Notes: generated from the sequence alone by a model not told the origin. DNA of 56,681 nt from Pseudonocardiaceae bacterium (GCA_035275565.1 DATEMN010000001.1:1-56681); one strand, 5' to 3'; shown: positions 861 to 56,247, numbered from the stretch's first letter. A program made the numbers and translations.

Positions 861-958
861 CTCTGAATAGCACGCAGCGGGCCTCTGTGACCGCGGTTCG
901 GCTCCGATTGGCACGTAGGGGGTCTCTGTGACCGCGATTCGGCTCCGATTGGCAGTTG
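861..958 (-). repeat. Two tandem copies (881-916, 921-958), plus a degenerate third, of a dispersed palindromic intergenic repeat in reverse orientation
   Basis: gcctctgtgaccgcggttcggctccgattggcacg and ggtctctgtgaccgcgattcggctccgattggcag. Their reverse complements match GTGCCA(A/T)TCGGAGCCGAA(T/C)CGCGGTCACAGAG, seen at five other loci in the window. Confidence 0.75.
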
Positions 959-1124: not shown

Positions 1125-1694
1125 ATGGTCGCCCCACCGGTTCTGTCACGTGGACTGCTCGCTCGTGTGCTGGCGGACCGAGCGACCCATGGCGACGCCC
1201 TCGAATGGCTACCGCGGCTGCCTGGCCACAGTGTGGACCTGTTCTTCACCAGCCCTCCCTACGCCGACGCGCGTGTGTACAGCCGTATCCATCCGGATCG
1301 TTATGTCGACTGGTTCCTGCCGTTCGCAAGCACGATGCTCGATGCTGTGAGTGACACGGGAACTCTGGTCTTGAACATCAAGAATAGAGTGGCGAACCGA
1401 GGTGCCGTAAAGGGTCAGTGCCATCCGTATGCATATCAACCTGTTCTTGCTCCGCAAGAAATGGGCTGACGATGGTTCGAAACATACATCTGGGCGAAGA
1501 TGAACGCCGTTCTAGGACGATTCGGACCGCGAACTAAAGACAGTTTCGAGTACGTATACCATTTCGCTCGTAGGCCGAAGCCTTATTTTGCTCTCGATGC
1601 TCGGAGTCGGTTGACATGTCGGATGCCAGAGAGGCGGTCAATGGGATTATTGACGCGTCTACCTGGGATCAAAGGATTACCAGAATTCGTCTAA
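1125..1694 (+). pseudogene. Relic N4/N6 DNA methyltransferase (ParB-less PF01555-type): in-frame nonsense codon and loss of the C-terminal half
   Basis: ORFs 1125..1469 and 1500..1694 share a frame and are separated by TGA at 1467..1469 (...PQEMG*RWFETYIWAK...). The catalytic motif IV 'FTSPPY' and the family-typical 'KDSFEYVYHFA' are present. The C-terminal AdoMet motif (DPF-GSGTT) is absent, and the sequence after ...RRPKPYF looks unrelated. Confidence 0.65.
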
Positions 1695-2191
1695 TGCCAC
1701 GGAATCACGGTACCGCGGAGCACGCTCGAATCTTCGCTGAGGTCGCCCGTGAGGCGTACGCCCCACATCTCGCTGCCGACTTTGCTCACATCCACGAAGC
1801 TCCATTCTATGAGCAGAACTATTTTGAAGATTTCTACGTTGATGCCTGCGTTGCCACGAATGGTTTCGCTGACGTTTCTGAAGCACGGTTGGCTGAGGTG
1901 CTCTACAAAAGCCCCCGGACGCTGTTAGAAGGCTTAGACGGCCCGGCCGTCGATCTCGAGTCACCTGTGAGATCTGAGTCAACCCGGAGCGATGGTCAGG
2001 CGCGTGCCGTTGCCACGCCCGGTAAACCCTGTGAACGAGTTGTCCGGTCAAGTAGTGCGCAGGTGCCGTTACCAGCCCAAGACTCTGGTGTCGTTCGGCG
2101 GGCCGTCCACGCTTCGTCATCGGATAGCCGAGCATGCCAAGGGTATCTCGTCAGGTATTTCGAGCCTTGGTGTGGCACGTGTGGTTCGTAG
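1616..2191 (+). CDS. Hypothetical protein; only the first ~115 codons look protein-like and the 3' part may be degraded
   Basis: ORF track only: MSDAREAVNGIIDASTWDQRITRIRLMPRNHGTAEHARIFAEVAREAYAPHL... I recognise no family. It lies in AT-richer DNA, and the tail (after ...LEGLDGPAVDLES) is low-complexity. Confidence 0.25.
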   Translation: MSDAREAVNGIIDASTWDQRITRIRLMPRNHGTAEHARIFAEVAREAYAPHLAADFAHIHEAPFYEQNYFEDFYVDACVATNGFADVSEARLAEVLYKSPRTLLEGLDGPAVDLESPVRSESTRSDGQARAVATPGKPCERVVRSSSAQVPLPAQDSGVVRRAVHASSSDSRACQGYLVRYFEPWCGTCGS

Positions 2192-2423
2192 CCCTCCGAT
2201 CCGAGTAGGACCTTCACGCCCGCCTCGCGCAGTTCATTGACGTTACGGTTGGAGGCTGGGTGCGCCGCTTGGGTCGCGTTCAGAAATGGCAGCGCAGATC
2301 ACCATCGCCCGGCAGATGTGCGAGGTGTCTCGTTCAGCTTTGGCCGCTATGGGGTATGAGGCGAGTGCAGAAGACGTTCTCGAAGGTCAAGTCGGTCATT
2401 GACCTCGATTCCGAGCGTCCCGC

Positions 2424-2460
2424 CGAGTGCTATTCGGAGTCGACTCGCGGTCGCAGGGAC
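2424..2460 (+). repeat. Divergent copy of the dispersed palindromic repeat
   Basis: cgagtgctattcggagtcgactcgcggtcgcagggac versus the family consensus GAGTGCCATTCGGAGCCGAATCGCGGTCACAGAGAC. Confidence 0.6.
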
Positions 2461-2592
2461 GATGAACCCGGTATGCCGGGCGTGACGCAGCATCATCCGG
2501 CCACAGGATCACTCAGAGTGAAAGCCTGTAGTTCCAGTCACTTAGACAGTCAGAGGTGCTCATTTACCTCACCTGGCTCCGGCTATCGAGGG

Positions 2593-3042
2593 CTATCGAG
2601 CGAGGCGACGCGCGGTGTCCTTGATGACATCAGTGAGGCAACGCTGGGCCGCGCCGCCCATGCTATTCAGCACGATCTGGAGTTGCCGCGCGGTGTTCAG
2701 ATCGATCTTGCCGATCATCGTTGCTGCGGTACTGGTCAAGGCCAGGAGAACGCGTCTGAGGTCGTCGGGGTCCGGGGTGCGGCTGACCAGCCCGGCCCGG
2801 GTGAGTCGATCGACCATCGCGCAGGTGGCTGGTGGTCGGGTGCCCAGGGCCTGGGACAATGCGATCAGTGTGACCGGGGCCTTCGCGCTGATGTAGTGCA
2901 GTGCAATCAGCTGGGCCAGGGTCATCTCGCTGCCTGCCCAAGCGGCCGGCCGGGCCGACACCAGCCCTCGCAGGTGGCTTGCCAGCCAGCGGGCATCCTC
3001 CGTTGTCACCATCGACGGTCCTGCTCCGGGCCAACCGTCCAA
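2593..3042 (-). CDS. MarR family transcriptional regulator
   Basis: 149-aa ORF. Winged-HTH core ...LAQLIALHYISAKAPVTLIALSQALGTRPPATCAMVDRLTRAGLVSRTPDPDDLRRVLLALT... is typical of MarR. The start could be the downstream Met (MVTTED..., 3012). Confidence 0.8.
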   Translation of the reverse strand: MDGWPGAGPSMVTTEDARWLASHLRGLVSARPAAWAGSEMTLAQLIALHYISAKAPVTLIALSQALGTRPPATCAMVDRLTRAGLVSRTPDPDDLRRVLLALTSTAATMIGKIDLNTARQLQIVLNSMGGAAQRCLTDVIKDTARRLAR

Positions 3043-3990
3043 CTCTCCACCGGTTGACCTCCATTAGTCTTTGATGCTTCATGGAACCAACGAAAGCGCT
3101 CTAGCGCAAGAACCTGCTGGTGCAGTTCTTGGGGCGTGGGCTGGTCACTATCTGTGAATCAGCGATAGCTACGTCACCAGGCCCTCGAAAATAAGGATAA
3201 ATCGCCCTAATCGTCAGATACTGCCGTCCGGCGATGATCTCGGTCGAGACATCCTCAGCTGGCACCACCCTGCGCTCACCACCAAGTTTCATGGGGAGTA
3301 CCCCCACTGCCACCCCAGCTAAACCAGGATCACGCAGCCGGCGCGGCGACCGTCCACGCCGGCTGGTATCGTTAAAGATCGTCCGTGTGTCCAAGCGGTT
3401 CGGGCGACATCAAGGCTTACCTGCTTGGTGGCGCAGATCCGGGGACGGTGGGATCGGCAAGCCGGGGGTTCGCGATCCACGAAGCGTTCGTCCATAAAGC
3501 TCATCGACGAACTGCAGACAAGGTGGAGCGGAAGTTCCTCAATCATTGCTTGGAGCCGGCTGACACGGCAGTTACGGAACGGCAAGGCTGGACACAGGTC
3601 CGAAGATCTACGGCACAGGTCACGGACGGTGACATCATGTGCCCTGGTTCAGCCGTAAGCGGACTTCAAGAACATGAATCGCGAGGTGGTCGAGCACCGG
3701 ATTGAATCGGTCCGCACACGCGCCACAACGTAGCGCTATCGACGGTGGGACGCGTAACGCGCTCTTGCTGACAAACGATGGACATTACAAGGATGGCGCC
3801 ACAAGGTAGATCATGAAAACACGAACGGACTGGCGGCCCCTCGAACTGCGGCTGCGACTTACCGTGGCGGTCTTCCCGTGCCACCGTCTGAGGTGCGCAT
3901 TTCACAGGCAGTAGTAGTCTCGAGTGTGGTAACAATCGGTGTCTGCGCCGTCACTCGAACTTACTGGTAGACGAAACGGAAGGCGCTGAG

Positions 3991-4227
3991 ATGGGCAACT
4001 ACATAGTTAACGGCGAGGTGATCGACGTGCGTGAGGAGCTACCAACCGCCGCCGACCTCAAGCGTCACACCAGGAGCGTGCTGTCCGATTGGGTGATGGC
4101 GAGCATGCCCAATGGTCAGATCGTAAAACTCGAGGATCATAGGCCACTTCCTGCTGATGCGGTCGACTACTCAGTGGTGACGCCGTTCACCTATGGGTGC
4201 ATTGCCAGGTCGGAATGTCGTCCATAA
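3991..4227 (+). CDS. Small ubiquitin-like (beta-grasp, ThiS/MoaD/'multiubiquitin'-type) protein; the precursor carries a C-terminal tail
   Basis: 78 aa: MGNYIVNGEVIDVREELPTAADLKRH...GQIVKLEDHRPLPADAVDYSVVTPFTYG|CIARSECRP. The 'I-VNG-x-v', 'dl', 'l-dgD-v' pattern resembles ThiS-like Ubls. It has an RBS-like ggaagg upstream and is the first gene of an operon with E2 and JAB-E1. Confidence 0.6.
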   Translation: MGNYIVNGEVIDVREELPTAADLKRHTRSVLSDWVMASMPNGQIVKLEDHRPLPADAVDYSVVTPFTYGCIARSECRP

Positions 4228-4685
4228 CCCACGACCTCGACACCCGGCGCCGGATCGGTCGACTCAGGGCCGAGGCGTTGTTGCTTTCGCAGCGGTTCGG
4301 TGATGTCCGTTTCGACACGAAGAGCGGTACTTGGTTCTACGTCGAGCGATTTCCGATCCCCTCGGGCTGGAACAAGTCTCATATCGAGTTGCTGATCGAC
4401 ATCCCGCACGGTACCCCTGGTTACCCCTCGGTGCCGCCGGAATGGTTCTGGGCGGACCATGATCTCCGCACGGACAAAAAGCAACCGCTCAACCACTTCT
4501 TCACGCGTGGCCCGAGCAGCGACAAGGAACATCTCAATCATGGCTGGGGGCATTTCTGTGTACATCTTATCGGGTGGCGACCCATGGGTGGCGCCGACTT
4601 TCTGCGTGGACACAGTCTGGTGACCTACCTGAATCTGATCGCGGCTATCTTTCGCGATCGGCGCACGCTCAGTGGGGTAGGATGA
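4215..4685 (+). CDS. UBC-like E2 (prokaryotic E2 family; best guess is the 'Prok-E2_E'-type, given the operon context)
   Basis: ...IELLIDIPHGTPGYPSVPPEWFW... mimics the UBC 'fP-x-YP-x-PP' strand-loop. ...NHGWGHFCVHLIGWRP... mimics the UBC active site 'ICLDIL--W-P' (Cys codon 4557..4559). ATG 4215 overlaps the Ubl tail by 13 nt (alternative GTG at 4197). The stop overlaps the next start (ATGA at 4682..4685). Confidence 0.65.
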   Translation: MSSITHDLDTRRRIGRLRAEALLLSQRFGDVRFDTKSGTWFYVERFPIPSGWNKSHIELLIDIPHGTPGYPSVPPEWFWADHDLRTDKKQPLNHFFTRGPSSDKEHLNHGWGHFCVHLIGWRPMGGADFLRGHSLVTYLNLIAAIFRDRRTLSGVG

Positions 4686-6202
4686 TGAAGTTCGAAGTGC
4701 CTGACATCGTCCTGAGCTCGCGTCTCTGGTCACAACTCCGCGCTCATCTCCTGGCTAGCAATGATGAACTAAATCGGTCGGGAGACAATGAGCAGTCGGC
4801 GTTCATTCTTGCTGCGCCCAACGTGTCAGCCGGCAGGGTACGCTTGGTGGGTCATGAGCTGTTACGTGCCCAGTCGAGGGATTTAGATCAGCAGTCTCCC
4901 TCGAGTATCAGTCTGAACGGTCAATTCGTTGCGGCGGCTTTGACTCGGTGTCGGCGAGAAGGCTGGAGTCTGATCGAGGTCCACTCGCATCCCTTCGACT
5001 CAGGGTCTCGAACGACGTTCAGCGGTGTTGACTGGTCTAACGACCGGATGAAGATGCCCCGTCTTGCGTCGATGCTGCCCGCGCCGTTCTACCACGTCAC
5101 GATGGTCGTGGGACAGAACAGTCTCGACGCTCATTACTATCAACGTGCAACCGGGAAGATACTGCCAGTACGGAGAGTGACCATCGTTGGTAGCTCCGCC
5201 GAGGATTCACCAGTGCTGCGCTATCTCCCAGTATCCGGTTCTACTCCTGCGCCGGTCCACCCGCACGATGCGCACGATGTACGTCACAGCCGCCAACTGC
5301 CGCTGCTCGGCGCCGCCACGCAAGAGGCCCTCGCGCAAGCGCGAGTGGCCGTCGTCGGTGTAGGCGGACTCGGTTCGTTCGCTGCCGTAGAACTCGCCCA
5401 CCTCGGCGTCGGCCACCTGACTCTGATCGATCCTGATCGTATCGAGCTGAGTAATCTCAACCGTCTCATCGGCGCTAGACCGGACGATGTTGGACGGTAC
5501 AAGGTCGACGTCTTTCGAGAACTTATCGCCCGGGTGGCACCGGAGGTCGCGGTGACAGCCGTGGCGGCGCCGCTCCTCGACAGTGAAGCTCTCAACCATG
5601 CTAAAGCAGCGGATCTGCTGCTCGGCTGCGTGGACGGGCACGGTGCCCGGTTGTCCCTGAATCATTTATCTATCCGATACCTCATACCGCTCATCGATGC
5701 CGGTACCGGCGCCAGACTCGGGAGCGACAGTCTCGCCGCGAGACTCGGAGGGCAAGTCCATGTCGTTGCCCCGGGAGTCGGCTGCCTCGAGTGTCGTGGT
5801 TTCATTCATGCGCAACAGGCGGCGTATGACCTGGCGCCGCCGGAGGTGCAGGAGTACGAACGAGCACACGGCTACGGCACCGAGGAGGCCATGCCTTCGG
5901 TCATATTCCTGAATGGTGTCGTGGCGTCGATCCAGGTTGCGGAAGCCGTGCGGATCCTTGGCGTCGAGACAGGGCAGGAGTACGTCACGCCGAAGCTGAT
6001 CGTTTACGATGCACAAGCCCAGCGGATGTTCCCGGTGACTGTTCGCCACTCGCCTGAGTGCGCCACCTGCGGCAGTCACGGTGTGGTAGGCGTCGCTGAT
6101 CTGGCACCTTTGCAGGCTGCGTCGACGGCCGTGGCCGCTTTCGCACCGATATCACTAGCGCTAGCCGGAGTCGCACGTGCCGGATCCCATTCCGAGGAAT
6201 AA
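4682..6202 (+). CDS. JAMM/MPN+ metalloprotease (JAB) fused to an E1-like adenylyltransferase (ThiF/MoeB/HesA family)
   Basis: N-terminal domain: ...NEQSAFIL...EVHSHPFDSGSRTTFSGVDWSND fits E...HxH-x10-SxxD (HSH codons 4982..4990). C-terminal domain: RVAVVGVGGLGSFAAVELAHLGVGHLTLIDPDRIELSNLNRL (Rossmann GxGGxG plus D-x-D...SNLNR), with the two CxxC pairs GCLEC and ECATCG typical of the ThiF/MoeB Zn site. The true start is taken as ATG 4682 (MMKFEV...), not the track's 4574. Confidence 0.85.
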   Translation: MMKFEVPDIVLSSRLWSQLRAHLLASNDELNRSGDNEQSAFILAAPNVSAGRVRLVGHELLRAQSRDLDQQSPSSISLNGQFVAAALTRCRREGWSLIEVHSHPFDSGSRTTFSGVDWSNDRMKMPRLASMLPAPFYHVTMVVGQNSLDAHYYQRATGKILPVRRVTIVGSSAEDSPVLRYLPVSGSTPAPVHPHDAHDVRHSRQLPLLGAATQEALAQARVAVVGVGGLGSFAAVELAHLGVGHLTLIDPDRIELSNLNRLIGARPDDVGRYKVDVFRELIARVAPEVAVTAVAAPLLDSEALNHAKAADLLLGCVDGHGARLSLNHLSIRYLIPLIDAGTGARLGSDSLAARLGGQVHVVAPGVGCLECRGFIHAQQAAYDLAPPEVQEYERAHGYGTEEAMPSVIFLNGVVASIQVAEAVRILGVETGQEYVTPKLIVYDAQAQRMFPVTVRHSPECATCGSHGVVGVADLAPLQAASTAVAAFAPISLALAGVARAGSHSEE

Positions 6203-6434
6203 AAGCGCGCGTGGGTGGCGACCGCGCCGGCCTGCAGCCCGACGGGCTTGGCCGGGTCTGCCATTCCGGCGGCCTCCGGAGAATGTCGGACGGCATAGGC
6301 CGCAGCCAGGGCAGCCGCGGCCATCTGCGAGACAAGAAAGTCCGTTAGGTCAGCTGTTTCGGTGGCCCCAGGGCCACGTCGGACGGCATAGGCTGCTTCC
6401 CCCGTCGAGTCGCCTGCAACCCAGTACCGGGGTC

Positions 6435-7061
6435 GTGGTCGGTGTATTACTGTTGGTCGTCGCGGTGCTTGTGGTATGGATCGTCGTGCTGCCGCTTCTC
6501 CCCTCGGCAACATTCTCCGGCTCGATGGCTGCCCCGCCGACTCCCCCGGCGAGTGACCACGCCGATGCCGTGGGTGGCAATGATCCGGGCACTGTCGACA
6601 GCCGGCCGGAGGTGCCTGCGGCCATCGATCCCGGTCCCACACACGACAGTGCAGGTCGCGATGCGCTGAGCGTCACGCACCGTGATAGCGGGGTCCCGGT
6701 AGCAGGCAGTCAGCCCCGCTCAGTGGCACAGCCGTCCCAGCCCAATTCACCGGCGGCCGTCGCTGACCTCGGGCAGCAGGGCGGTCCAGCGGCGACAGAC
6801 CAGGTTCAGCGGCAGGTGGTACGACCAAGCGGGTCCGGTGCTGCCGAACCGGCCCCACGTCGAAAGCCTCAGCCCCCACCGGTCCACCCCCGCGGGAATT
6901 CCGGTTCGGAAACCGTGCCTGAACCGCCTGAGCCTGAACTCCCTGATCCCGACGAGCTGCGCGACCAGTTCAGCGCCGTGGCTCGAAAGCTCGCCGAGTT
7001 CCGGCCAGACCCTGACGGCACATTTCCCCAAGCCCCAGCGAGGGGCGCAGCGACACACTAA
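6435..7061 (+). CDS. Hypothetical membrane-anchored Pro-rich protein (start uncertain: GTG 6435, or ATG 6177 overlapping the E1 gene)
   Basis: One clear TM helix (VGVLLLVVAVLVVWIVVLPLL) is followed by a Pro/Ala/Ser-rich region. Third-position GC is only moderate, I recognise no family, and competing antisense ORFs exist. Confidence 0.3.
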   Translation: MVGVLLLVVAVLVVWIVVLPLLPSATFSGSMAAPPTPPASDHADAVGGNDPGTVDSRPEVPAAIDPGPTHDSAGRDALSVTHRDSGVPVAGSQPRSVAQPSQPNSPAAVADLGQQGGPAATDQVQRQVVRPSGSGAAEPAPRRKPQPPPVHPRGNSGSETVPEPPEPELPDPDELRDQFSAVARKLAEFRPDPDGTFPQAPARGAATH

Positions 7062-44359: not shown

Positions 44360-46309
44360 ATGACCGAGGTCTTGCCTCCAGTGACTGCCGCCGTTGGTTC
44401 CGCTCAGCATGCGTGGTTGCTTGTCGCGTTGCCGGCCTTCGGTGCGCTGGTGCTGCTGGTCGGTGGCCGCCGCACCAAGGCGTGGGGTCACCTGTTGGGC
44501 TGCGCGACGGTGCTCGCCGCCTTCGTCTACGGCGTGGTGCTGTTCTCCGAGTGGCTCGGCTTGGGTGCCGAGGAGCGGACCCGGGAGCTGGACCTGGGCA
44601 CTTGGTTCGCGGTCAACGCGCTCCAGGCCGACTATGGCCTGCGGCTGGATCCGCTGTCGCTGACGTTCGTGCTGCTGATCACCGGCGTCGGCGGGTTGAT
44701 CCACATCTACTCGATCGGCTACATGGCGCACGACCCTGGGCGGTACCGGTTCTTCGGGTACCTGAACCTGTTCGTCGCGGCGATGCTCGTCCTGGTTCTC
44801 AGCAACAACTTCGTCACGCTCTACCTTGGCTGGGAAGGCGTGGGGCTGGCCTCCTACCTGCTCATCGGCTGGTACCAGAACCGCCCGAGCGCGGCGACGG
44901 CGGCGAAGAAGGCGTTCCTGATGAACCGGGTCGGCGATGTCGGCCTGGCCCTGGCGATCTTCTTGATCTGGCGGTCGCTGGGCACCGTGCAGTTCTCCGA
45001 GGTGTTCGCTCGCGTGGGGCAGATCGACGGGCCCACTTTGCTGGCGATCACCCTGTTGTTGCTGCTCGGGGCCTGTGGCAAGTCCGGCCAGTTCCCGTTG
45101 CAGGCATGGTTGCCCGACGCGATGGAGGGCCCGACCCCGGTCTCGGCGCTGATCCACGCCGCGACGATGGTGACCGCTGGGGTGTACCTGATCGCCCGGT
45201 GCCACCCGCTGTACGACCTCAGCGAGACCGGCCGGCTGGTCGTCGCGCTGATCGGGGTGATCACTCTGCTGATCGGGTCGATCATCGGCTGCGCCTACGA
45301 CGACATCAAGAAGGTGCTGGCTTACTCCACGGTCAGCCAGATCGGTTACATGATCCTCGCGGTCGGGCTGGGCCCGGCCGGGTACGCGCTGGGCATCGCG
45401 CACCTGCTCACCCACGGCTTCTTCAAAGCCGGGCTGTTCCTCGGTGCGGGCTCGGTGATGCACGCGATGCACGACGAGGTCGACATGCGCCGGATGGGTG
45501 GGCTCGCGCGGCACCTGCCGATCACTTTCGTGATTTTCACCTCGGGTTACCTGGCGCTGGTCGGGTTCCCGTTCCTGTCCGGCTACTACACCAAGGACGC
45601 GATCATCGAAGCTGCGTTCGGTGCCGGTGGCTGGCAGGGCTGGACCTTCGGTGGTCTCGCGATGCTGGCCGCCGGGATCACCGCTTTCTACATGACCCGA
45701 CTGCTGCTTATGACGTTCTTCGGTGCGGAGCGCTGGCGTGACCTGCGCAGCCCCGATGGCCAGAGTTACCACCCGCATGAGTCCCCGCCGGTGATGTGGG
45801 CGCCGATGGTGCCACTGGCGATCGGCTCGCTGGTCGGCGGTTTCTTCCTGATCTCGGGTGAGCGGCTGGCGCACTGGTTGGAGCCGTCGGTGGGCACGTT
45901 GGCACACAGTGCCGAGGCGCCGTTTCCGCACGAGCTGGTCCCGCTGTTTACCGTGCTGATCTCCGCGGCCGGTGCGCTGCTGGCCTGGCTGGTCGTCGGC
46001 AAGCAGCCGGTGCCGGTGCAACGGCCGCAGCGGGTCTCGCTGCCGGTGGCCGCGGCCAGGGCCGACCTCTACGCCAACGCGATCAATGAGACACTCATCG
46101 CCCGGCCCGGTACCTGGCTCACCCGGGCGCTCGTTTTTGTGGACAACAAGGGCGTCGACGGGGTGGTCAACGGCACTGCGGCGCTGCTCGGCGGCACGTC
46201 GGGGCGGCTGCGCAGGTTGCAGACCGGATTCGTGCGGAGCTACGCGCTGGGCATGCTGGGAGGCTCGGTCGTGGTGATCGCCTTGCTGCTGGTGGTGAGC
46301 TACTCATGA
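44360..46309 (+). CDS. nuoL: NADH-quinone oxidoreductase subunit L
   Basis: 649 aa, antiporter-like. ...LGWEGVGLASYLLIGW...AFLMNRVGD...GKSGQFPLQAWLPDAMEGPTPVSALIHAATMV.... The long C-terminal extension is typical of NuoL. Confidence 0.95.
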   Translation: MTEVLPPVTAAVGSAQHAWLLVALPAFGALVLLVGGRRTKAWGHLLGCATVLAAFVYGVVLFSEWLGLGAEERTRELDLGTWFAVNALQADYGLRLDPLSLTFVLLITGVGGLIHIYSIGYMAHDPGRYRFFGYLNLFVAAMLVLVLSNNFVTLYLGWEGVGLASYLLIGWYQNRPSAATAAKKAFLMNRVGDVGLALAIFLIWRSLGTVQFSEVFARVGQIDGPTLLAITLLLLLGACGKSGQFPLQAWLPDAMEGPTPVSALIHAATMVTAGVYLIARCHPLYDLSETGRLVVALIGVITLLIGSIIGCAYDDIKKVLAYSTVSQIGYMILAVGLGPAGYALGIAHLLTHGFFKAGLFLGAGSVMHAMHDEVDMRRMGGLARHLPITFVIFTSGYLALVGFPFLSGYYTKDAIIEAAFGAGGWQGWTFGGLAMLAAGITAFYMTRLLLMTFFGAERWRDLRSPDGQSYHPHESPPVMWAPMVPLAIGSLVGGFFLISGERLAHWLEPSVGTLAHSAEAPFPHELVPLFTVLISAAGALLAWLVVGKQPVPVQRPQRVSLPVAAARADLYANAINETLIARPGTWLTRALVFVDNKGVDGVVNGTAALLGGTSGRLRRLQTGFVRSYALGMLGGSVVVIALLLVVSYS

Positions 46310-47898
46310 GTGGTGGCGGCCTGCTGCTGGCGATGCTGCTGGTACCCCTGGTGGGCAGCGTGGTGGTCGCGCCGATGCGTTCTGCTCCGGCCGCGGCCAA
46401 GGTCACCGCGCTGGTGTTCGCCTTGGGCGAGCTGGTGCTGGCCGCGCTGGCCTGGTCGGCGTACCAGCCGGAAGGAGGACGGCTGCAGCTGCTGCTGTCC
46501 ACCGAGTGGATCCCGGCCTTTGGCGCTCGTTTCGCGCTTGGCGTCGACGGCATCGCGCTGGTGATGATCGCGCTGCTCGCCGTGCTGGTGCCGATCGTGA
46601 TGGGCTCTTCCTGGGAGGAGAAGCTGCCCGAGGGGCGCACCGTGGCGGGTTTCTACGCCCTGCTACTGGCCGCTCAGTCGATGATGATCGGGGTTTTCGC
46701 GGCCACCGACGTGTTCCTGTTCTACCTGTTCTTCGAGGTCATGCTGGTGCCGATGTACTTTTTGATCGGCCGCTTCGGTGGGCCGCGACGGCAGTACGCG
46801 GCGGTGAAGTTCTTCCTCTACTCGCTGCTCGGCGGGCTGGTCATGCTGGCCAGTGTGATCGGCGTGTTCGTGGTGAGCGCCGATCAGCTGGGTCAGGGCA
46901 CCTTCGACTGGGCCACTCTGGTGCGCATCGCCAACGACATCCCGGAGAACACCCAGATCTGGCTGTTCCTCGGGTTCTTCGTCGCTTTCGCGATCAAGGC
47001 GCCGCTGGTGCCGTTGCACACCTGGCTGCCCGACGCCGGTGCGGAAGCCCCGGTGGGTGCTGGTGTGCTACTGGTCGGGGTGATGGACAAGGTCGCCATT
47101 TACGGTTTCCTGCGTTACTGCCTGCCGCTGTTTCCCGACGCGTCGCGCGCGCTGGCCCCGCTGGTGCTGGTGCTTGCCGTCGCCGGGATCCTCTACGCCG
47201 CGCTGCTCGCCGTCGGCCAGTCCGACCTGAAAAGGTTCGTGGCCTACACCTCAGTGGCGCATTTCGGTTTCATCGCGCTGGGGGTCTTCGCCTTCTCCAC
47301 CCAGGGGCAGGCCGGTGCGGTGCTGTACATGGTCAATCACGGCATCTCCACCGGGATGCTGTTCATCGTGGTCGGCATCCTGATCGCCCGCGGTGGCTCC
47401 CGGCTGATCAGTGACTACGGCGGGGTAGCCGCGCTGGCTCCGGTGCTGGCCGGGATGATGCTGATCGCCGGGCTGTCCTCGCTGGCGCTGCCCGGCACCA
47501 ACTCGTTCGTCTCGGAGTTCCTGGTGCTGGTCGGCTCCTACCCGCGCCAGCCGGTGTTCACGATCCTGGCCACGACGGGCATCATCCTGGCCGCGTTGTA
47601 CGTGCTGTGGGTCTACCAGCGGGTCATGCAGGGTCCGGTACGGGGCGCGGCCGTGGTCGGAGTGTTGGCAGAGGGGCCGGGGACCGCGACGGCCCCGGAA
47701 GCGGCGGTGCAGCGGCAGCGCGCCCGGTTCCCTGATCTGTCGATCCGCGAGGTCGTTGTGCTGGCGCCGCTGGTGGCGCTCATTCTGTTGCTCGGGTTCT
47801 ATCCACAGCCAGTGTTGGATGTGATCAACCCTTCGGTCGGGGCCACGCTTACCGAGGTCGGCCTCACCGACCCGGTCGTCGAGCAGGGAGGCAACTGA
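46306..47898 (+). CDS. nuoM: NADH-quinone oxidoreductase subunit M
   Basis: ...FYLFFEVMLVPMYFLIG...FAIKAPLVPLHTWLPDA.... The start overlaps the nuoL stop. Confidence 0.95.
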   Translation: MSGGGLLLAMLLVPLVGSVVVAPMRSAPAAAKVTALVFALGELVLAALAWSAYQPEGGRLQLLLSTEWIPAFGARFALGVDGIALVMIALLAVLVPIVMGSSWEEKLPEGRTVAGFYALLLAAQSMMIGVFAATDVFLFYLFFEVMLVPMYFLIGRFGGPRRQYAAVKFFLYSLLGGLVMLASVIGVFVVSADQLGQGTFDWATLVRIANDIPENTQIWLFLGFFVAFAIKAPLVPLHTWLPDAGAEAPVGAGVLLVGVMDKVAIYGFLRYCLPLFPDASRALAPLVLVLAVAGILYAALLAVGQSDLKRFVAYTSVAHFGFIALGVFAFSTQGQAGAVLYMVNHGISTGMLFIVVGILIARGGSRLISDYGGVAALAPVLAGMMLIAGLSSLALPGTNSFVSEFLVLVGSYPRQPVFTILATTGIILAALYVLWVYQRVMQGPVRGAAVVGVLAEGPGTATAPEAAVQRQRARFPDLSIREVVVLAPLVALILLLGFYPQPVLDVINPSVGATLTEVGLTDPVVEQGGN

Positions 47899-47899
47899 G

Positions 47900-49534
47900 G
47901 TGCTCGACGGTGAGTCGCTGGGGGTAGTTCTGACGCAGGTGCTGACCCAGGTGCTGACCCAGGTCTCGCAGGTGCAGGCGCCTGCGATCGACTACGGGGC
48001 GGTCGCTCCGGTGTTGGTGGTACTCGGGGCGGCCTGCATCTCCGTGCTGGTGGAGGCATTCGTCCCGCGCGCGGGACGGTGGCCGGCCCAGGTCGGACTG
48101 TGCCTGCTCACCCTGGTGCTGGCGGGTGCGGCGCTGGGCATGCACCTGTACTCGTTCTCCCGAGGCGACGTCGGCGACGTCGTGACGCTGTCCGCGACGG
48201 TGGCCGTCGACGGCCCCACGTTGTTCCTGTGGGGCACCCTGCTGGCGCTGGGTCTGGGCGCGGTGCTCCTCATCGCGGATCGGACGGTCGAACCCGGGGG
48301 TGCGTTCACCGCCGACGCCGCGGTGCGCCCGGGTACCGCAGCCGATCGTGCACAGACCGGTACCTCGACAGGCACGTTGACCGAAACCACGATGCAGACC
48401 GAGGTTTTCCCGCTGTTCTTGTTCTCGCTGGGCGGGATGATGGTCTTCACTGCGGCCAACGACCTGCTCACCATGTTCATCGCGCTGGAGGTGCTCAGCC
48501 TGCCGCTGTACCTGATGTGCGGGCTGGCCCGGCGACGCCGGTTGCTGTCTCAAGAGGCGGCCGTCAAATACTTTCTCTTAGGCGCATTCTCCTCAGCGTT
48601 TTTTCTTTACGGGGTGGCCCTGCTGTATGGCTACGCGGGTTCGGTGAACCTGGCTGCGATCGCCGAGGCGTCCGTCGGGAGCGACCGGCCGGACGCTCTC
48701 CTGCTGGTCGGGCTCGCGCTGCTGGTGGTCGGGTTGCTGTTCAAGGGCTCGGTCGGGCCGTTCCATACCTGGACTCCGGACGTCTACCAGGGCGCGCCGA
48801 CACCGGTGACGGCGTTCATGGCGGCCTGCACCAAGGTCGCGGCCTTCGGTGGCATCCTGCGGGTACTGACGGTGGGCTTTGAGGGCACCCGCTGGGAGTG
48901 GCGTGGCCTGCTGTGGGGGGTGGCGATCGTCTCGATGGTGATCGGCGCGGTGCTGGGGCTGACCCAGACCGACGTCAAGCGCATGATCGCTTACTCGTCG
49001 GTGGCACACGCGGGCTTTCTGCTGGTCGGGGCGATCGCGCTGACCGAGCAGGGCCTGTCCGGCACGATGTTCTACCTGCTCGCCTACGGTTTCACCACGC
49101 TGGCCGCGTTCGGTGTGGTCACCCTGGTGCGCGACGCCAACGGTGAGGCCACCCACCTGTCGCAGTGGGCGGGGTTGGCCAAGCGCTCGCCGTTGACCGC
49201 CGCGGTCTTCGCTTTCCTGCTCTTCGCGCTTGCTGGCATTCCGCTGACCAGCGGTTTCACCGGTAAGTTCGCGGTGTTCAGCGCCGCGCTGGCGGACGGG
49301 ATGGCGCCGCTGGTGGTGGTGGCCCTGGTGGCCAGTGCGGTGGCCGCGTTCTTCTATCTACGGGTGGTGGTACTGATGTATTTCAGCGAACCTGCCGCCG
49401 ACGGTCCGACGGTGAGCGTGCCGGGGGCATTCACCACTGCCGCGATCACGCTCGGCGTGGTGATCACCCTGCTGCTCGGGGTGCTGCCCGCCTTCGCCTT
49501 GGACTGGGCCGCGCTCGGCGTGTTCACCTCCTGA
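47900..49534 (+). CDS. nuoN: NADH-quinone oxidoreductase subunit N (start ambiguous: 47900, or GTG codons at 47939/47951/47972)
   Basis: ...NDLLTMFIALEVLSLPLYLMCG...KYFLLGAFSSAFFLYG...GPFHTWTPDVYQGAPTPVTAFM.... Confidence 0.9.
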   Translation: MLDGESLGVVLTQVLTQVLTQVSQVQAPAIDYGAVAPVLVVLGAACISVLVEAFVPRAGRWPAQVGLCLLTLVLAGAALGMHLYSFSRGDVGDVVTLSATVAVDGPTLFLWGTLLALGLGAVLLIADRTVEPGGAFTADAAVRPGTAADRAQTGTSTGTLTETTMQTEVFPLFLFSLGGMMVFTAANDLLTMFIALEVLSLPLYLMCGLARRRRLLSQEAAVKYFLLGAFSSAFFLYGVALLYGYAGSVNLAAIAEASVGSDRPDALLLVGLALLVVGLLFKGSVGPFHTWTPDVYQGAPTPVTAFMAACTKVAAFGGILRVLTVGFEGTRWEWRGLLWGVAIVSMVIGAVLGLTQTDVKRMIAYSSVAHAGFLLVGAIALTEQGLSGTMFYLLAYGFTTLAAFGVVTLVRDANGEATHLSQWAGLAKRSPLTAAVFAFLLFALAGIPLTSGFTGKFAVFSAALADGMAPLVVVALVASAVAAFFYLRVVVLMYFSEPAADGPTVSVPGAFTTAAITLGVVITLLLGVLPAFALDWAALGVFTS

Positions 49535-56164: not shown

Positions 56165-56247
56165 GGCGGGTTGCCCGAGCGGCCAATGGGAGCGGACTGT
56201 AAATCCGTCGGCTGATGCCTTCCAAGGTTCGAATCCTTGACCCGCCA
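56165..56247 (+). tRNA. tRNA-Tyr (anticodon GTA), class II with a long variable arm; CCA not fully encoded
   Basis: GGCGGGTTGCCCGAGCGGCCAATGGGAGCGGACTGTAAATCCGTCGGCTGATGCCTTCCAAGGTTCGAATCCTTGACCCGCCA. It has a 7-bp acceptor stem, anticodon loop CUGUAAA and T-loop GGTTCGAATCC, and is near-identical in layout to E. coli tRNA-Tyr. Confidence 0.85.

What the first reader, a model, noticed from the sequence alone, without database searches (positions are those of the whole stretch)
3991..6202. Compact Ubl - E2 - JAMM::E1 operon: a bacterial ubiquitination-like conjugation system (probable defence module)
**Seen in sequence.**
- Three same-strand genes are packed with overlapping stop and start codons. 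The E2 ATG at 4215 lies inside the Ubl tail, and there is an ATGA overlap at 4682-4685.
- Gene 1 is a 78-aa protein with a ThiS/ubiquitin-like pattern.
- Gene 2 is a ~156-aa protein with a UBC-like 'PGYPSVPPEWFW' loop and a Cys (codon 4557-4559) in 'HFCVHLIGWRP', which echoes the eukaryotic E2 active site 'ICLDIL..W.P'.
- Gene 3 is a 506-aa fusion. The N-terminal domain has a complete JAMM motif (E...HSH-x10-SGVD). The C-terminal domain is ThiF/MoeB-type E1, with GVGGLGS, DPD..SNLNR and two CxxC pairs.

**Established knowledge.**
- Comparative genomics (Iyer, Burroughs, Aravind) predicted bacterial operons combining Ubl, E2, E1 and JAB.
- Related modules (CBASS Cap2/Cap3, the four-gene Bil systems) have recently been shown to act in antiphage defence.

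**Inference.**
- The gene order Ubl-E2-DUB-E1 mirrors Bil, but here the deubiquitinase is fused in front of the E1 and the Ubl is a single minimal domain.
- No cyclase, effector or obvious target gene is adjacent, so this is not CBASS.
- The operon lies in an AT-richer, partly degraded island next to a dead DNA methyltransferase, which suits a horizontally acquired defence island.
- Target, trigger and biological role are unknown.
Basis: partly seen in the sequence, partly recalled or inferred. Interest (0 to 1): 0.88.

Follow-up and report, generated by a model that had tools for sequence, protein, structure and literature searches.

The report
Bub-like ubiquitin-type tagging operon, cysteine variant
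This is an intact four-gene bacterial operon for attaching a small ubiquitin-like protein to targets; it is a relative of the recently described cysteine-free "Bub" pathway, but it keeps a cysteine in its E2 enzyme, lacks the usual Bub protease, and instead carries a conserved membrane protein that may be its partner or target.

Summary
In detail: every ORF, overlap and motif is at the stated coordinates.

- **E1.** The JAMM::E1 fusion is a full-length homologue of Citrobacter BubCD (profile E 3e-47). Its crossover loop has no Cys and carries the invariant Tyr that BubCD uses as nucleophile.
- **E2.** It belongs to Pfam Prok-E2_E. Its best sequence and fold match in the PDB is BubB.
- **Ubl.** The model is a beta-grasp closest to Bub-type multi-ubiquitin proteins. 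It ends in an invariant Tyr-Gly followed by a variable tail.

This is therefore a Bub/"6E"-type system, not Bil or CBASS. It fails three defining Type I Bub features:

- The E2 nucleophile is Cys-x-His, not Ser-x-His.
- Ubl and E2 are separate genes.
- There is no DUF6527 (BubE) gene.

It is conserved in about 40 actinobacterial and Ktedonobacteria loci. It has an invariant N-terminal peptide (MP-D-P-IP-x-N-x-S), a nearly lysine-free, arginine-rich cytoplasmic tail, one TM helix and a variable ectodomain.

An antiphage role is unproven. Verdict: new variant of a known kind, moderately high interest.

The parts
3705..3833 (+). Conserved non-coding (or leader) element about 160-290 nt upstream of the Ubl start. 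Candidate promoter, operator or leader; function unknown.
   Evidence: blastn gives 71-78% identity to the equivalent position in L001/L031, L005, L006, L008, L015 and L029. A 17-locus alignment has invariant GTAAC and CGAT, and nearly invariant GGAT(CATGA) blocks. No credible Rfam match: the only hit is a chance one far below its gathering score. No sigma-70 consensus was found.
3991..4227 (+). Ubl precursor (BubA-like), 78 aa. A single beta-grasp domain ends in invariant Y68-G69, followed by a 9-aa tail (CIARSECRP) that is predicted to be removed.
   Evidence: ORF. The AF2 model has pLDDT 86 and beta-beta-alpha-beta-beta-beta topology. The best PDB folds are bacterial multi-ubiquitin/BubA proteins 8u38, 9cd2, 9d5b and 9ea8_B, with TM 0.60-0.69 and prob 0.95-1.0. 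In 19 homologues Y68-G69 is invariant, and the tail after it varies from 1 to 9 aa or is the E2 itself. There is no Pfam hit.
4215..4685 (+). E2 (BubB-like, Pfam Prok-E2_E), 156 aa. The predicted nucleophile is Cys115 (codon 4557-4559), with His117 two residues on.
   Evidence: PF14462 at 27.2 bits against a cut-off of 25. A profile of homologues finds Citrobacter BubB as the best PDB sequence (E 0.003). The AF2 model (pLDDT 78) best matches BubB 9eae_C (E 1.4e-4, prob 1.0), then Rad6, UbcH7 and Ubc6. Cys115 lies in the column of the Bub catalytic Ser.
4682..6202 (+). JAB/JAMM peptidase :: E1 adenylation-domain fusion (BubCD-like), 506 aa.
- JAMM residues: E37, H101, H103, S114, D117.
- E1 residues: G226xGGxG, R261, D318, Zn site C368xxC371 and C460xxC463, and crossover-loop Y398 (HGYG). 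The loop has no Cys.
   Evidence: ThiF at 158 bits. Citrobacter BubCD is the best PDB hit (E 6.5e-31 for the single sequence). The JAB part alone gives E 5e-6. The profile gives E 3.2e-47 over positions 6-417, with GY aligned to the BubCD GY (Y370). Invariant residues are listed. The crossover-loop Tyr is present in every related locus whose loop could be aligned.
6177..7061 (+). Fourth, translationally coupled gene ('g4'), 294 aa, GTG start overlapping the E1 stop by 26 nt.
- Conserved N-terminal peptide MPDPIPRNKSA.
- Arg/Pro-rich cytoplasmic tail with only one Lys, containing two ~31-aa repeats.
- One TM helix (about residues 84-108).
- Pro-rich extracytoplasmic region.
- Candidate partner, adaptor or target of the conjugation system.
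   Evidence: An ORF with the same N-terminus directly follows the E1 in 41 loci, including Saccharopolyspora, Kribbella, Allokutzneria, Kitasatospora and Ktedonobacteraceae. Positions M1, I5, P6 and N8 are invariant and S10 is present in 40 of 41. In many loci the gene does not overlap the E1, so the conservation is not an overlap artefact. Cytoplasmic tails hold 12 Lys and 1051 Arg in 6533 residues, against 208 Lys and 378 Arg in the ectodomains. The DNA repeat is at 6255-6303 and 6348-6396. There is no Pfam or PADLOC hit.

Best explanation
The locus is an intact, co-translated four-gene cassette encoding a Bub-family (formerly '6E') ubiquitin-like protein conjugation pathway, in a subfamily that has not been characterised.

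**Proposed mechanism** (steps marked shown or inferred)
1. The 78-aa Ubl is made as a precursor. The JAMM domain at the N-terminus of the E1 removes the 9-residue tail after Gly69. This is inferred from BubCD, which cleaves BubAB after its conserved Gly, and from the invariant YG plus variable tail or fused E2 in homologues.
2. The MoeB/ThiF-like adenylation domain, probably a homodimer, adenylates Gly69. The ATP-binding and catalytic residues are shown to be conserved. The activity is inferred.
3. The E1 has no crossover-loop cysteine. The invariant Tyr398 takes the Ubl as an oxyester, as shown for BubCD Y370. Here this is inferred by alignment.
4. The Ubl passes to E2 Cys115 as a thioester. 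Cys115 sits in the column of the Bub catalytic Ser and is paired with His117. This makes a mixed oxyester-to-thioester relay (inferred).
5. The E2 transfers the Ubl to a target without an E3 (inferred).

**The fourth gene product** is a membrane protein with an invariant N-terminal peptide and a lysine-free cytoplasmic tail. It most likely docks the machinery at the membrane and/or is its dedicated substrate or regulator. It stands in the operon position that the BubE protease holds in canonical Bub.

**Biological role.** Stress or phage response at the cell envelope is the best guess. It is not established.
For: **Gene structure and coupling**
- The ORFs and their overlaps are confirmed.

**Homology to BubCD, BubB and BubA**
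- Sequence evidence.
- Predicted-fold evidence.

**Catalytic residues**
- The JAMM, adenylation and Zn residues are invariant in 14 diverse homologues.
- The crossover loop lacks Cys, and its GY Tyr is conserved in every related locus whose loop could be aligned. These include bona fide DUF6527-linked Type I Bub loci.
- The E2 Cys-x-His motif is invariant in about 45 loci of the clade. It aligns with Ser-x-His of the Bub-type relatives.
- Across 125 family representatives the column is either Cys (86) or Ser (39). A crude tree implies about 10 switches, as expected for an interchangeable nucleophile.

**Ubl**
- The YG end is invariant, followed by a 1-9 aa tail, or fused directly to the E2 in Streptomyces (P0143, P0148).

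**Operon conservation**
- The same gene order, including g4, is seen in Actinomycetota and Ktedonobacteria.

**Published biochemistry**
- Type I Bub biochemistry is in bioRxiv 10.1101/2024.11.21.623953.
Against: - There is no experimental evidence for this clade. All chemistry is transferred by homology.
- The E2 Pfam score is only just above the cut-off. The E2-BubB sequence alignment does not itself reach the active site. The Cys/Ser equivalence rests on profile alignment with Ser-type relatives.
- The Tyr could be structural here. The E2 Cys might instead attack the adenylate directly.
- g4 is low-complexity and Pro/Arg-rich in a high-GC genome. Its ectodomain is not conserved. Its link to the pathway is positional only.
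- The lysine depletion is measured on related, non-independent sequences.
- No known defence regulator (CapH/CapP, WYL) and no BubE is present.
- The gene caller behind the protein database called only a 329-aa E1 here (P0054), so the true start of the fusion has not been verified experimentally.
Confidence: 0.72

Rival explanations
1. It is a Bil-type (bacterial ISG15-like) antiphage system in which the DUB has become fused to the E1. It would work by a Cys-Cys thioester relay and tag phage structural proteins.
For: - The gene order Ubl-E2-DUB-E1 is the same.
- The E2 has a Cys followed by a His.
- Type II Bil Ubls also have a conserved Gly followed by up to nine variable residues (PMC10557695).
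Against: - The E1 has a single adenylation domain with no inactive domain and no Cys domain. No Cys is present in its crossover loop.
- Its best structural relative by far is BubCD, across both domains.
- The E2 is PF14462, and its best match is BubB, not BilB.
- No Bil or ISG15-like model in PADLOC matched.
Confidence: 0.05
2. It is a canonical Type I Bub operon that has simply lost or displaced its BubE gene and split its BubAB gene. It would then be an ordinary member with nothing new, and the Cys would be a neutral substitution.
For: - It has the JAB-E1 fusion, the crossover-loop Tyr, a PF14462 E2 and a Bub-like Ubl.
- Close relatives in Streptomyces do have a fused Ubl-E2.
- Cys and Ser interchange repeatedly in the family.
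Against: - Cys-x-His is invariant through a deep clade spanning 45-80% identity and two phyla. The Bub Asp is replaced in that clade.
- DUF6527 is absent from all of about 45 clade loci within +/-6 kb and from the whole 56.7-kb window. It was readily found in the Ser-type Nocardioidaceae loci.
- A different conserved gene, g4, occupies the downstream position.
- The published Bub catalogue was built from DUF6527-containing operons and reports an invariant Ser.
Confidence: 0.12
3. It is a sulfur-carrier or cofactor/metabolite biosynthesis module. A ThiS/MoaD-like protein would be activated by a MoeB-like E1 and trimmed by a JAB, as in CysO-Mec or PdtH systems. It would not be a protein-conjugation system.
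For: - After BubCD, the nearest E1 relatives are MoeB and ThiF.
- The E1 keeps the MoeB/ThiF-type Zn CxxC pairs that Citrobacter BubCD lacks.
- JAB + E1 + small beta-grasp operons for sulfur transfer are common in actinobacteria (PMC1779556).
Against: - A UBC-fold E2 with a conserved nucleophile is an integral, translationally coupled part of the cassette.
- No rhodanese, cysteine synthase, ThiG, MoaE or other sulfur acceptor gene is adjacent.
- The Ubl ends in YG, not GG, and its fold is closest to Bub-type Ubls rather than ThiS.
Confidence: 0.04
4. The cassette is a decaying remnant in a degraded island and is non-functional in this genome.
For: - It lies next to a frameshifted methyltransferase and a stretch of fragmentary ORFs at 1200-3900.
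- In two related genomes the cassette is visibly damaged: the E2 is split in L026 and the E1 is out of frame in L046.
Against: - All four ORFs are open and full-length in the window.
- Every catalytic residue is retained.
- The proteins are 80-88% identical to intact relatives.
- The start/stop overlaps are preserved.
Confidence: 0.05

Closest known systems
Type I Bub (bacterial ubiquitination-like; formerly '6E.1'/DUF6527) operons, e.g. Citrobacter sp. RHBSTW-00271 BubAB-BubCD-BubE (Ye, Gong, Chambers, Corbett, bioRxiv 10.1101/2024.11.21.623953; PDB 9ea4, 9ea8, 9eae, 9eav)
   Same: - An N-terminal JAB/JAMM peptidase fused to a single-adenylation-domain E1.
- A crossover loop without Cys and with the conserved Tyr.
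- An E2 of Pfam Prok-E2_E with a truncated UBC fold and a His two residues after the nucleophile.
- A beta-grasp Ubl that must be cut after a conserved Gly.
- No E3.
   Different: - The E2 nucleophile is Cys, not Ser, and the accompanying Asp is Glu/Gln.
- Ubl and E2 are separate overlapping genes here, though fused in some relatives.
- The Ubl is a single 69-aa domain.
- The E1 retains the Zn-binding CxxC pairs.
- There is no BubE (DUF6527) serine protease.
- A conserved single-pass membrane protein follows the E1 instead.
Operon type '6e' of Iyer, Burroughs and Aravind 2006 (PMC1779556)
   Same: - The comparative-genomic prediction of a JAB-E1 fusion with a Ubl of one to three repeats and an E2-like protein.
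- It was reported in proteobacteria, cyanobacteria and 'certain actinobacteria'.
   Different: - There the E2-like protein was described as an inactive, RWD-like version.
- The partner was a Zn-finger protein (now DUF6527).
- A Cys-bearing E2 and the membrane partner were not described.
Type I/II Bil (BilABCD) antiphage systems
   Same: - The order Ubl, E2, JAB, E1.
- An E2 Cys with a nearby His.
- A Ubl with a Gly followed by a short removable tail.
- No E3.
   Different: - The Bil E1 has an inactive plus an active adenylation domain and a mobile Cys domain.
- Its JAB is a separate protein.
- The E2 belongs to a different family.
- Bil has demonstrated antiphage activity.
MoeB/ThiF and CysO-Mec type sulfur-carrier systems
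   Same: - A homodimer-type single adenylation domain with Zn CxxC pairs.
- A small beta-grasp substrate.
- JAB trimming in some systems.
   Different: - They have no E2.
- The product is a thiocarboxylate, not a protein conjugate.
- The genes are linked to sulfur or cofactor genes, which are absent here.

Membership tests
Type I Bub (6E.1) | JAB/JAMM peptidase fused to the N-terminus of the E1 (BubCD), with an intact JAMM site | tested here: met
   The profile aligns to BubCD over both domains, E 3.2e-47. The JAB part alone gives E 5e-6. E37, H101, H103 and D117 are invariant.
Type I Bub (6E.1) | E1 crossover loop without Cys and with an invariant Tyr (BubCD Y370) | tested here: met
   The loop 372-411 has no Cys. 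HGY398G is invariant and aligns with the BubCD GY. It also aligns with the GY of DUF6527-linked loci.
Type I Bub (6E.1) | E2 of the BubB / Pfam PF14462 type | tested here: met
   PF14462 at 27.2 bits against a cut-off of 25. BubB is the best PDB match by profile and by fold.
Type I Bub (6E.1) | E2 catalytic Ser with His at +2 and a conserved Asp (cysteine-free pathway) | tested here: not met
   The column holds Cys115 (GHFCVH), invariant in the clade. His117 is kept. The Asp column holds Glu or Gln.
Type I Bub (6E.1) | Ubl-E2 fusion protein (BubAB) cleaved by BubCD | tested here: not met
   The two are separate ORFs in different frames that overlap by 13 nt. They are separate in most relatives, and fused only in Streptomyces P0143 and P0148.
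Type I Bub (6E.1) | BubE (DUF6527 / PF20137) gene in the operon | tested here: not met
   A jackhmmer search seeded with a PF20137-verified BubE found it only in L070-72 and L081-83. It found none among the window's ORFs or in the Cys-type loci. g4 has no Pfam hit.
Type I Bub (6E.1) | Ubl-target conjugation through oxyester intermediates | not testable with these tools
   This needs biochemistry. Sequence predicts Tyr on the E1 and Cys on the E2.
Bil (BilABCD) | [quoted passage not shown] | tested here: not met
   The E1 part is about 310 aa, a single ThiF domain covering residues 203-460. It has no loop Cys. The JAB is fused.
Type II CBASS (Cap2/Cap3) | E2-E1 fusion (Cap2) next to a CD-NTase and an effector | tested here: not met
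   The E2 is a separate gene. PADLOC Cap2 models match only the adenylation core. No cyclase or effector is among the neighbouring ORFs.
ThiS/MoaD sulfur-carrier systems | Linkage to sulfur acceptor or donor genes (ThiG, MoaE, CysM, rhodanese) and absence of an E2 | tested here: not met
   An E2 is present. No such neighbours are seen in the window or in L001 and L002.
Anti-phage defence system (generic) | Demonstrated protection, or consistent residence in defence islands | tested here: inconclusive
   - The window copy is next to a dead MTase and has a lower GC than its flanks.
- One distant Cys-type operon lies next to HsdM.
- About 20 relatives share a fixed context with LytR and YkuD genes.
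- No PADLOC system matched.
- Even Bub has no demonstrated phage phenotype.

The most novel reading that the evidence does not exclude
The cassette is a distinct third type of Bub-like pathway.
- It runs a hybrid relay: E1 Tyr oxyester, then E2 Cys thioester.
- It is physically wired to a dedicated transmembrane protein.
- That protein's invariant N-terminal peptide, on an otherwise lysine-free cytoplasmic tail, is the docking site or the actual non-lysine attachment site (N-terminal or Ser10) of the Ubl.
- Ubl conjugation would thereby be coupled to something sensed outside the cell by the variable ectodomain.

This would be the first bacterial Ubl system with an identified cellular, membrane-bound partner.
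Probability: 0.25. Interest if true: 0.85.

Novelty: new variant of a known kind. Interest (0 to 1): 0.62.

Why it matters
**Chemistry.** Bub pathways were reported in 2024 as the only ubiquitin-like cascades that work without any catalytic cysteine. Their targets and biological role are still unknown. This clade keeps the Bub E1 (Tyr, no Cys) but has a Cys E2. It offers a natural intermediate between thioester and oxyester chemistry. It allows a direct test of whether the nucleophile identity matters, since Cys and Ser swap about 10 times in the family.

**Catalogue gap.** The published Bub catalogue was anchored on DUF6527, so it misses a large, diverse set of Cys-type relatives. Cys occupied the nucleophile position in 86 of the 136 best-matching E2 representatives that aligned well enough to score.

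**Candidate partner.** The conserved membrane partner has an invariant N-terminal peptide and a lysine-free tail. It gives a concrete, testable candidate for the missing substrate or adaptor of such a system.

Tried and rejected
- **Frameshifted BubAB fusion.** I considered that Ubl and E2 were a frameshifted fusion, meaning a pseudogene or sequencing error. This was rejected. Homologues in about 40 loci also have separate genes, each with its own short post-Gly tail.
- **g4 as BubE.** I looked for DUF6527 in g4 and elsewhere using a C-x-C-x-C regex (only spurious ORFs), Pfam and jackhmmer. It is absent.
- **Known defence regulators.** I looked for CapH/CapP or WYL next to the cassette. Only a MarR gene lies about 950 nt upstream on the other strand, and it is not conserved in relatives. 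CapH/CapP-like pairs do occur beside the distant Ser-type three-gene operons L050, L053 and L061. This was judged from ORF sizes and HTH-like sequences only and was not verified.
- **Island boundaries.** No tRNA lies within 12 kb, and no flanking direct or inverted repeats of note were found. The boundaries remain undefined.
- **Sequence searches that found nothing.** The single-sequence PDB search with the E2 found nothing. The Ubl search gave only chance hits. No Pfam, NCBIfam or PADLOC model matched the Ubl.
- **Upstream element.** The Rfam search of the upstream element gave nothing credible. The promoter and terminator consensus scan was uninformative.
- **Plasmid similarity.** A plasmid search of the upstream 3 kb hit only the methyltransferase fragment.
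- **Literature.** No paper in the library describes a Cys-type or DUF6527-less Bub relative or the g4 protein.


Full report
**1. The observation**

The ORF table and the sequence show three same-strand genes exactly as described.
- The Ubl-like ORF is 3991-4227 (78 aa).
- The E2-like ORF has its ATG at 4215, inside the tail of the first gene, and its TGA stop at 4683-4685.
- A 506-aa ORF starts at the ATG at 4682, forming an ATGA overlap.

All quoted motifs are present at the quoted codons: E2 Cys115 at 4557-4559, JAMM H101-S-H103 at 4982-4990, GVGGLGS, DPD..SNLNR and two CxxC pairs. Pfam gives ThiF (158 bits) for the third protein and Prok-E2_E (PF14462, 27.2 bits against a cut-off of 25) for the second. 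It gives nothing for the Ubl or the JAMM part.

**2. What the proteins are**

The fusion protein:
- Its best match among solved structures is Citrobacter BubCD (9ea4, 9ea5, 9eav), at E 6.5e-31.
- The N-terminal 203 residues alone still find only BubCD (E 5e-6). The JAMM Glu, HxH and Asp are aligned.
- A profile of 14 diverse homologues aligns to BubCD from residue 8 to 399, at E 3.2e-47. MoeB, ThiF and the eukaryotic E1s lie far behind.

The E2:
- It has no single-sequence PDB hit.
- A profile of 23 homologues finds Citrobacter BubB first (E 0.003).
- Its AlphaFold2 model (pLDDT 78) matches BubB 9eae_C best (E 1.4e-4, prob 1.0). Rad6, UbcH7 and Ubc6 follow.

The Ubl:
- Its model (pLDDT 86, beta-beta-alpha-beta-beta-beta) is closest to 'bacterial multi-ubiquitin domain' proteins. 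These include E. coli ZDHYS365 and Citrobacter BubA, with TM 0.60-0.69.

The reference system is therefore the Bub pathway of Ye et al. (bioRxiv 10.1101/2024.11.21.623953). This was formerly operon type '6e' of Iyer et al. 2006 (PMC1779556). It is not Bil, whose E1 has two adenylation domains plus a Cys domain and whose JAB is separate.

**3. Related loci**

- The fusion protein has hundreds of relatives. A scan of one genome per species returned 80 loci.
- The order Ubl, E2, JAB::E1 is kept in about 45 loci. These come from Pseudonocardiaceae MAGs (72-82% identity), Kribbella, Allokutzneria, Saccharopolyspora spinosa, Kitasatospora, Streptacidiphilus and Ktedonobacteraceae.
- The Ubl always ends in Tyr-Gly. 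This is followed by 1-9 non-conserved residues, or in two Streptomyces proteins by the E2 itself, the BubAB architecture. The split in the window is therefore genuine and not a frameshift, and a processing step at Gly69 is expected.

**4. Where it departs from Bub**

The E1 crossover loop:
- Aligning all E1s shows no Cys in the loop and a Tyr (HGY398G) in every related locus whose loop could be aligned.
- That set includes six Nocardioidaceae/Mycobacterium-type loci that carry a Pfam-verified DUF6527 gene and are therefore canonical Type I Bub.

The E2 nucleophile:
- Aligning all E2s shows that canonical and other distant relatives have the Bub motif Asp...Ser-x-His.
- The whole clade containing the window has Glu/Gln...Cys-x-His (G[WF]GHFC[VI]H) in the same columns.

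The wider family:
- In the library of 1.84 billion cluster representatives the E2 family is small, with 470 representatives at E<=1e-3.
- Among the 136 best-aligned representatives the nucleophile column is Cys in 86 and Ser in 39.
- Nearest neighbours usually share the state, and a crude tree implies about ten switches.
- Other Cys-type operons (L055, L084, L086, L087) also have a JAB::E1 with the loop Tyr and no recognisable DUF6527.
- The published catalogue was compiled from DUF6527-containing operons and reports the Ser as invariant. These Cys-type relatives fall outside it.

**5. A fourth gene**

- An ORF starting at GTG 6177, overlapping the E1 stop by 26 nt, runs to 7061.
- Its first residues, MPDPIPRNKSA, recur at the start of the gene that immediately follows the E1 in 41 loci. 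Examples are Kribbella (MPEPIPTNGSA), Allokutzneria, Kitasatospora (MADPIPTNRNV) and Ktedonobacter (MPEEIPWNSSV).
- M1, I5, P6 and N8 are invariant.
- In many loci the gene starts after the E1 stop, so the conservation is its own.
- The N-terminal peptide is followed by an Arg/Pro-rich tail with internal repeats (in the window, 6255-6303 and 6348-6396). Then come one TM helix (three hydrophobic segments in Kribbella and Allokutzneria) and a non-conserved extracytoplasmic part. That part is DUF4189 in Kitasatospora and a weak ConA-like match in Ktedonobacter.
- The cytoplasmic tails contain 12 Lys and 1051 Arg in 6533 residues. The ectodomains of the same proteins contain 208 Lys and 378 Arg.
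- Lysine avoidance next to a conjugation machine, plus an invariant terminal peptide, makes this protein the best candidate for a docking partner, regulator or non-lysine substrate. That is inference from position and composition only.

**6. Context**

- The cassette has 57-63% GC against 65-72% in its flanks. The same holds in the relatives.
- In about 20 Pseudonocardiaceae genomes it lies downstream of LytR_cpsA_psr, AMP-binding and YkuD genes. None of the window's flanks occurs in any other locus. Those flanks are an MTase remnant at 1125-1694, MarR at 2593-3042 on the minus strand, and menE, menD and menB from 7161. The four genes therefore move as a unit.
- The methyltransferase is indeed broken.
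- No tRNA, integrase or bounding repeats were found nearby.
- A stretch of about 130 nt (3705-3833) upstream of the Ubl is conserved in relatives and has no credible Rfam match.

**7. Mechanism and role**

The most likely mechanism has these steps:
- The JAMM domain trims the Ubl at Gly69.
- The E1 adenylates Gly69.
- Tyr398 carries the Ubl as an oxyester.
- The Ubl passes to Cys115 of the E2 as a thioester.
- The E2 transfers the Ubl to a target without an E3.

The membrane protein would localise the reaction or receive the Ubl. The homology and residue conservation are shown. Each chemical step is inferred from the Citrobacter work. An antiphage role is possible, given mobility, low GC, an RM remnant, and one distant relative next to HsdM. 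It is unproven, and the Bub authors themselves found no phage protection.

**8. Verdict**

It works like Type I Bub but fails three of that family's defining features. I file it as a new variant of a known kind, of moderately high interest.

Noticed in passing
window 3705-3833: A stretch of about 130 nt upstream of the Ubl gene is conserved at 71-78% identity in at least seven related loci. In a 17-locus alignment it has invariant GTAAC and CGAT blocks and a nearly invariant GGAT(CATGA) block. The last block looks like a Shine-Dalgarno sequence plus an ATG, but what follows is not conserved as a reading frame. It may be a promoter, operator or leader.
   Followed up: partly
window 1125-1694: A broken type II DNA methyltransferase. 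The N-terminal ~90 aa, with the DLFFTSPPY motif, match MTase models. The frame then changes. DNA similarity to a Microbacterium plasmid methyltransferase spans both fragments.
   Followed up: partly
window 870-954: A 41-nt unit is repeated 2.1 times in tandem at 90% identity, in an apparently non-coding stretch at the GC-rich left edge of the low-GC region.
   Followed up: no
L004-L033 (about 20 loci), 2-6 kb upstream of the cassette: In Pseudonocardiaceae MAGs the cassette sits at a fixed chromosomal site downstream of LytR_cpsA_psr, a short AMP-binding gene and a YkuD L,D-transpeptidase. An acyl-CoA dehydrogenase-like gene lies downstream in about 10 of them. The window's copy is at a different site, next to menE, menD and menB.
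   Followed up: partly
L026:5303-5995 and L046:5992-7607: In two related genomes the cassette looks damaged. The E2 is split into two ORFs in L026, and the E1 and g4 are out of frame in L046 (Streptacidiphilus). This could be pseudogenisation or assembly error.
   Followed up: no
L048, L050, L053, L054, L061 (Nitrospirae, Aminicenantales, Neomarinimicrobiota, Thaumarchaeota, Planctomycetota MAGs): These are compact three-gene Ser-type operons. The Ubl ends exactly at ...RG, the E2 is 125-130 aa with D...S-x-H, and a JAB::E1 follows. No DUF6527 lies within the fetched flanks. Several have a divergent HTH plus a ~200-290 aa gene pair upstream that resembles CapH/CapP. DUF6527-less Bub relatives are therefore not confined to the Cys type.
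   Followed up: partly
L084:2684-8138, L086:1-6829, L087:901-4636: Other Cys-type Ubl/E2/JAB::E1 operons sit in varied company. L084 has two AAA/ClpB-like genes upstream and an E1 with a C-terminal DegT-like extension. L086 lies next to a type I restriction HsdM gene. In L087 the E1 has its own N-terminal Ubl-like domain and is followed by an AAA/Clp-like protein.
   Followed up: no
window 4682-6202: The protein database holds only a 329-aa product for this gene from this contig (P0054). The original gene call evidently started inside the ORF and missed the JAMM domain. This may be why such fusions are annotated simply as 'HesA/MoeB/ThiF family protein'.
   Followed up: no
window 44360-49534 and 56165-56247: Three consecutive long ORFs (649, 530 and 544 aa) have strongly negative AT skew. 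Their sizes are reminiscent of nuoL, nuoM and nuoN membrane subunits. A tRNA gene lies at the right end of the window. Both are unrelated to the finding.
   Followed up: no
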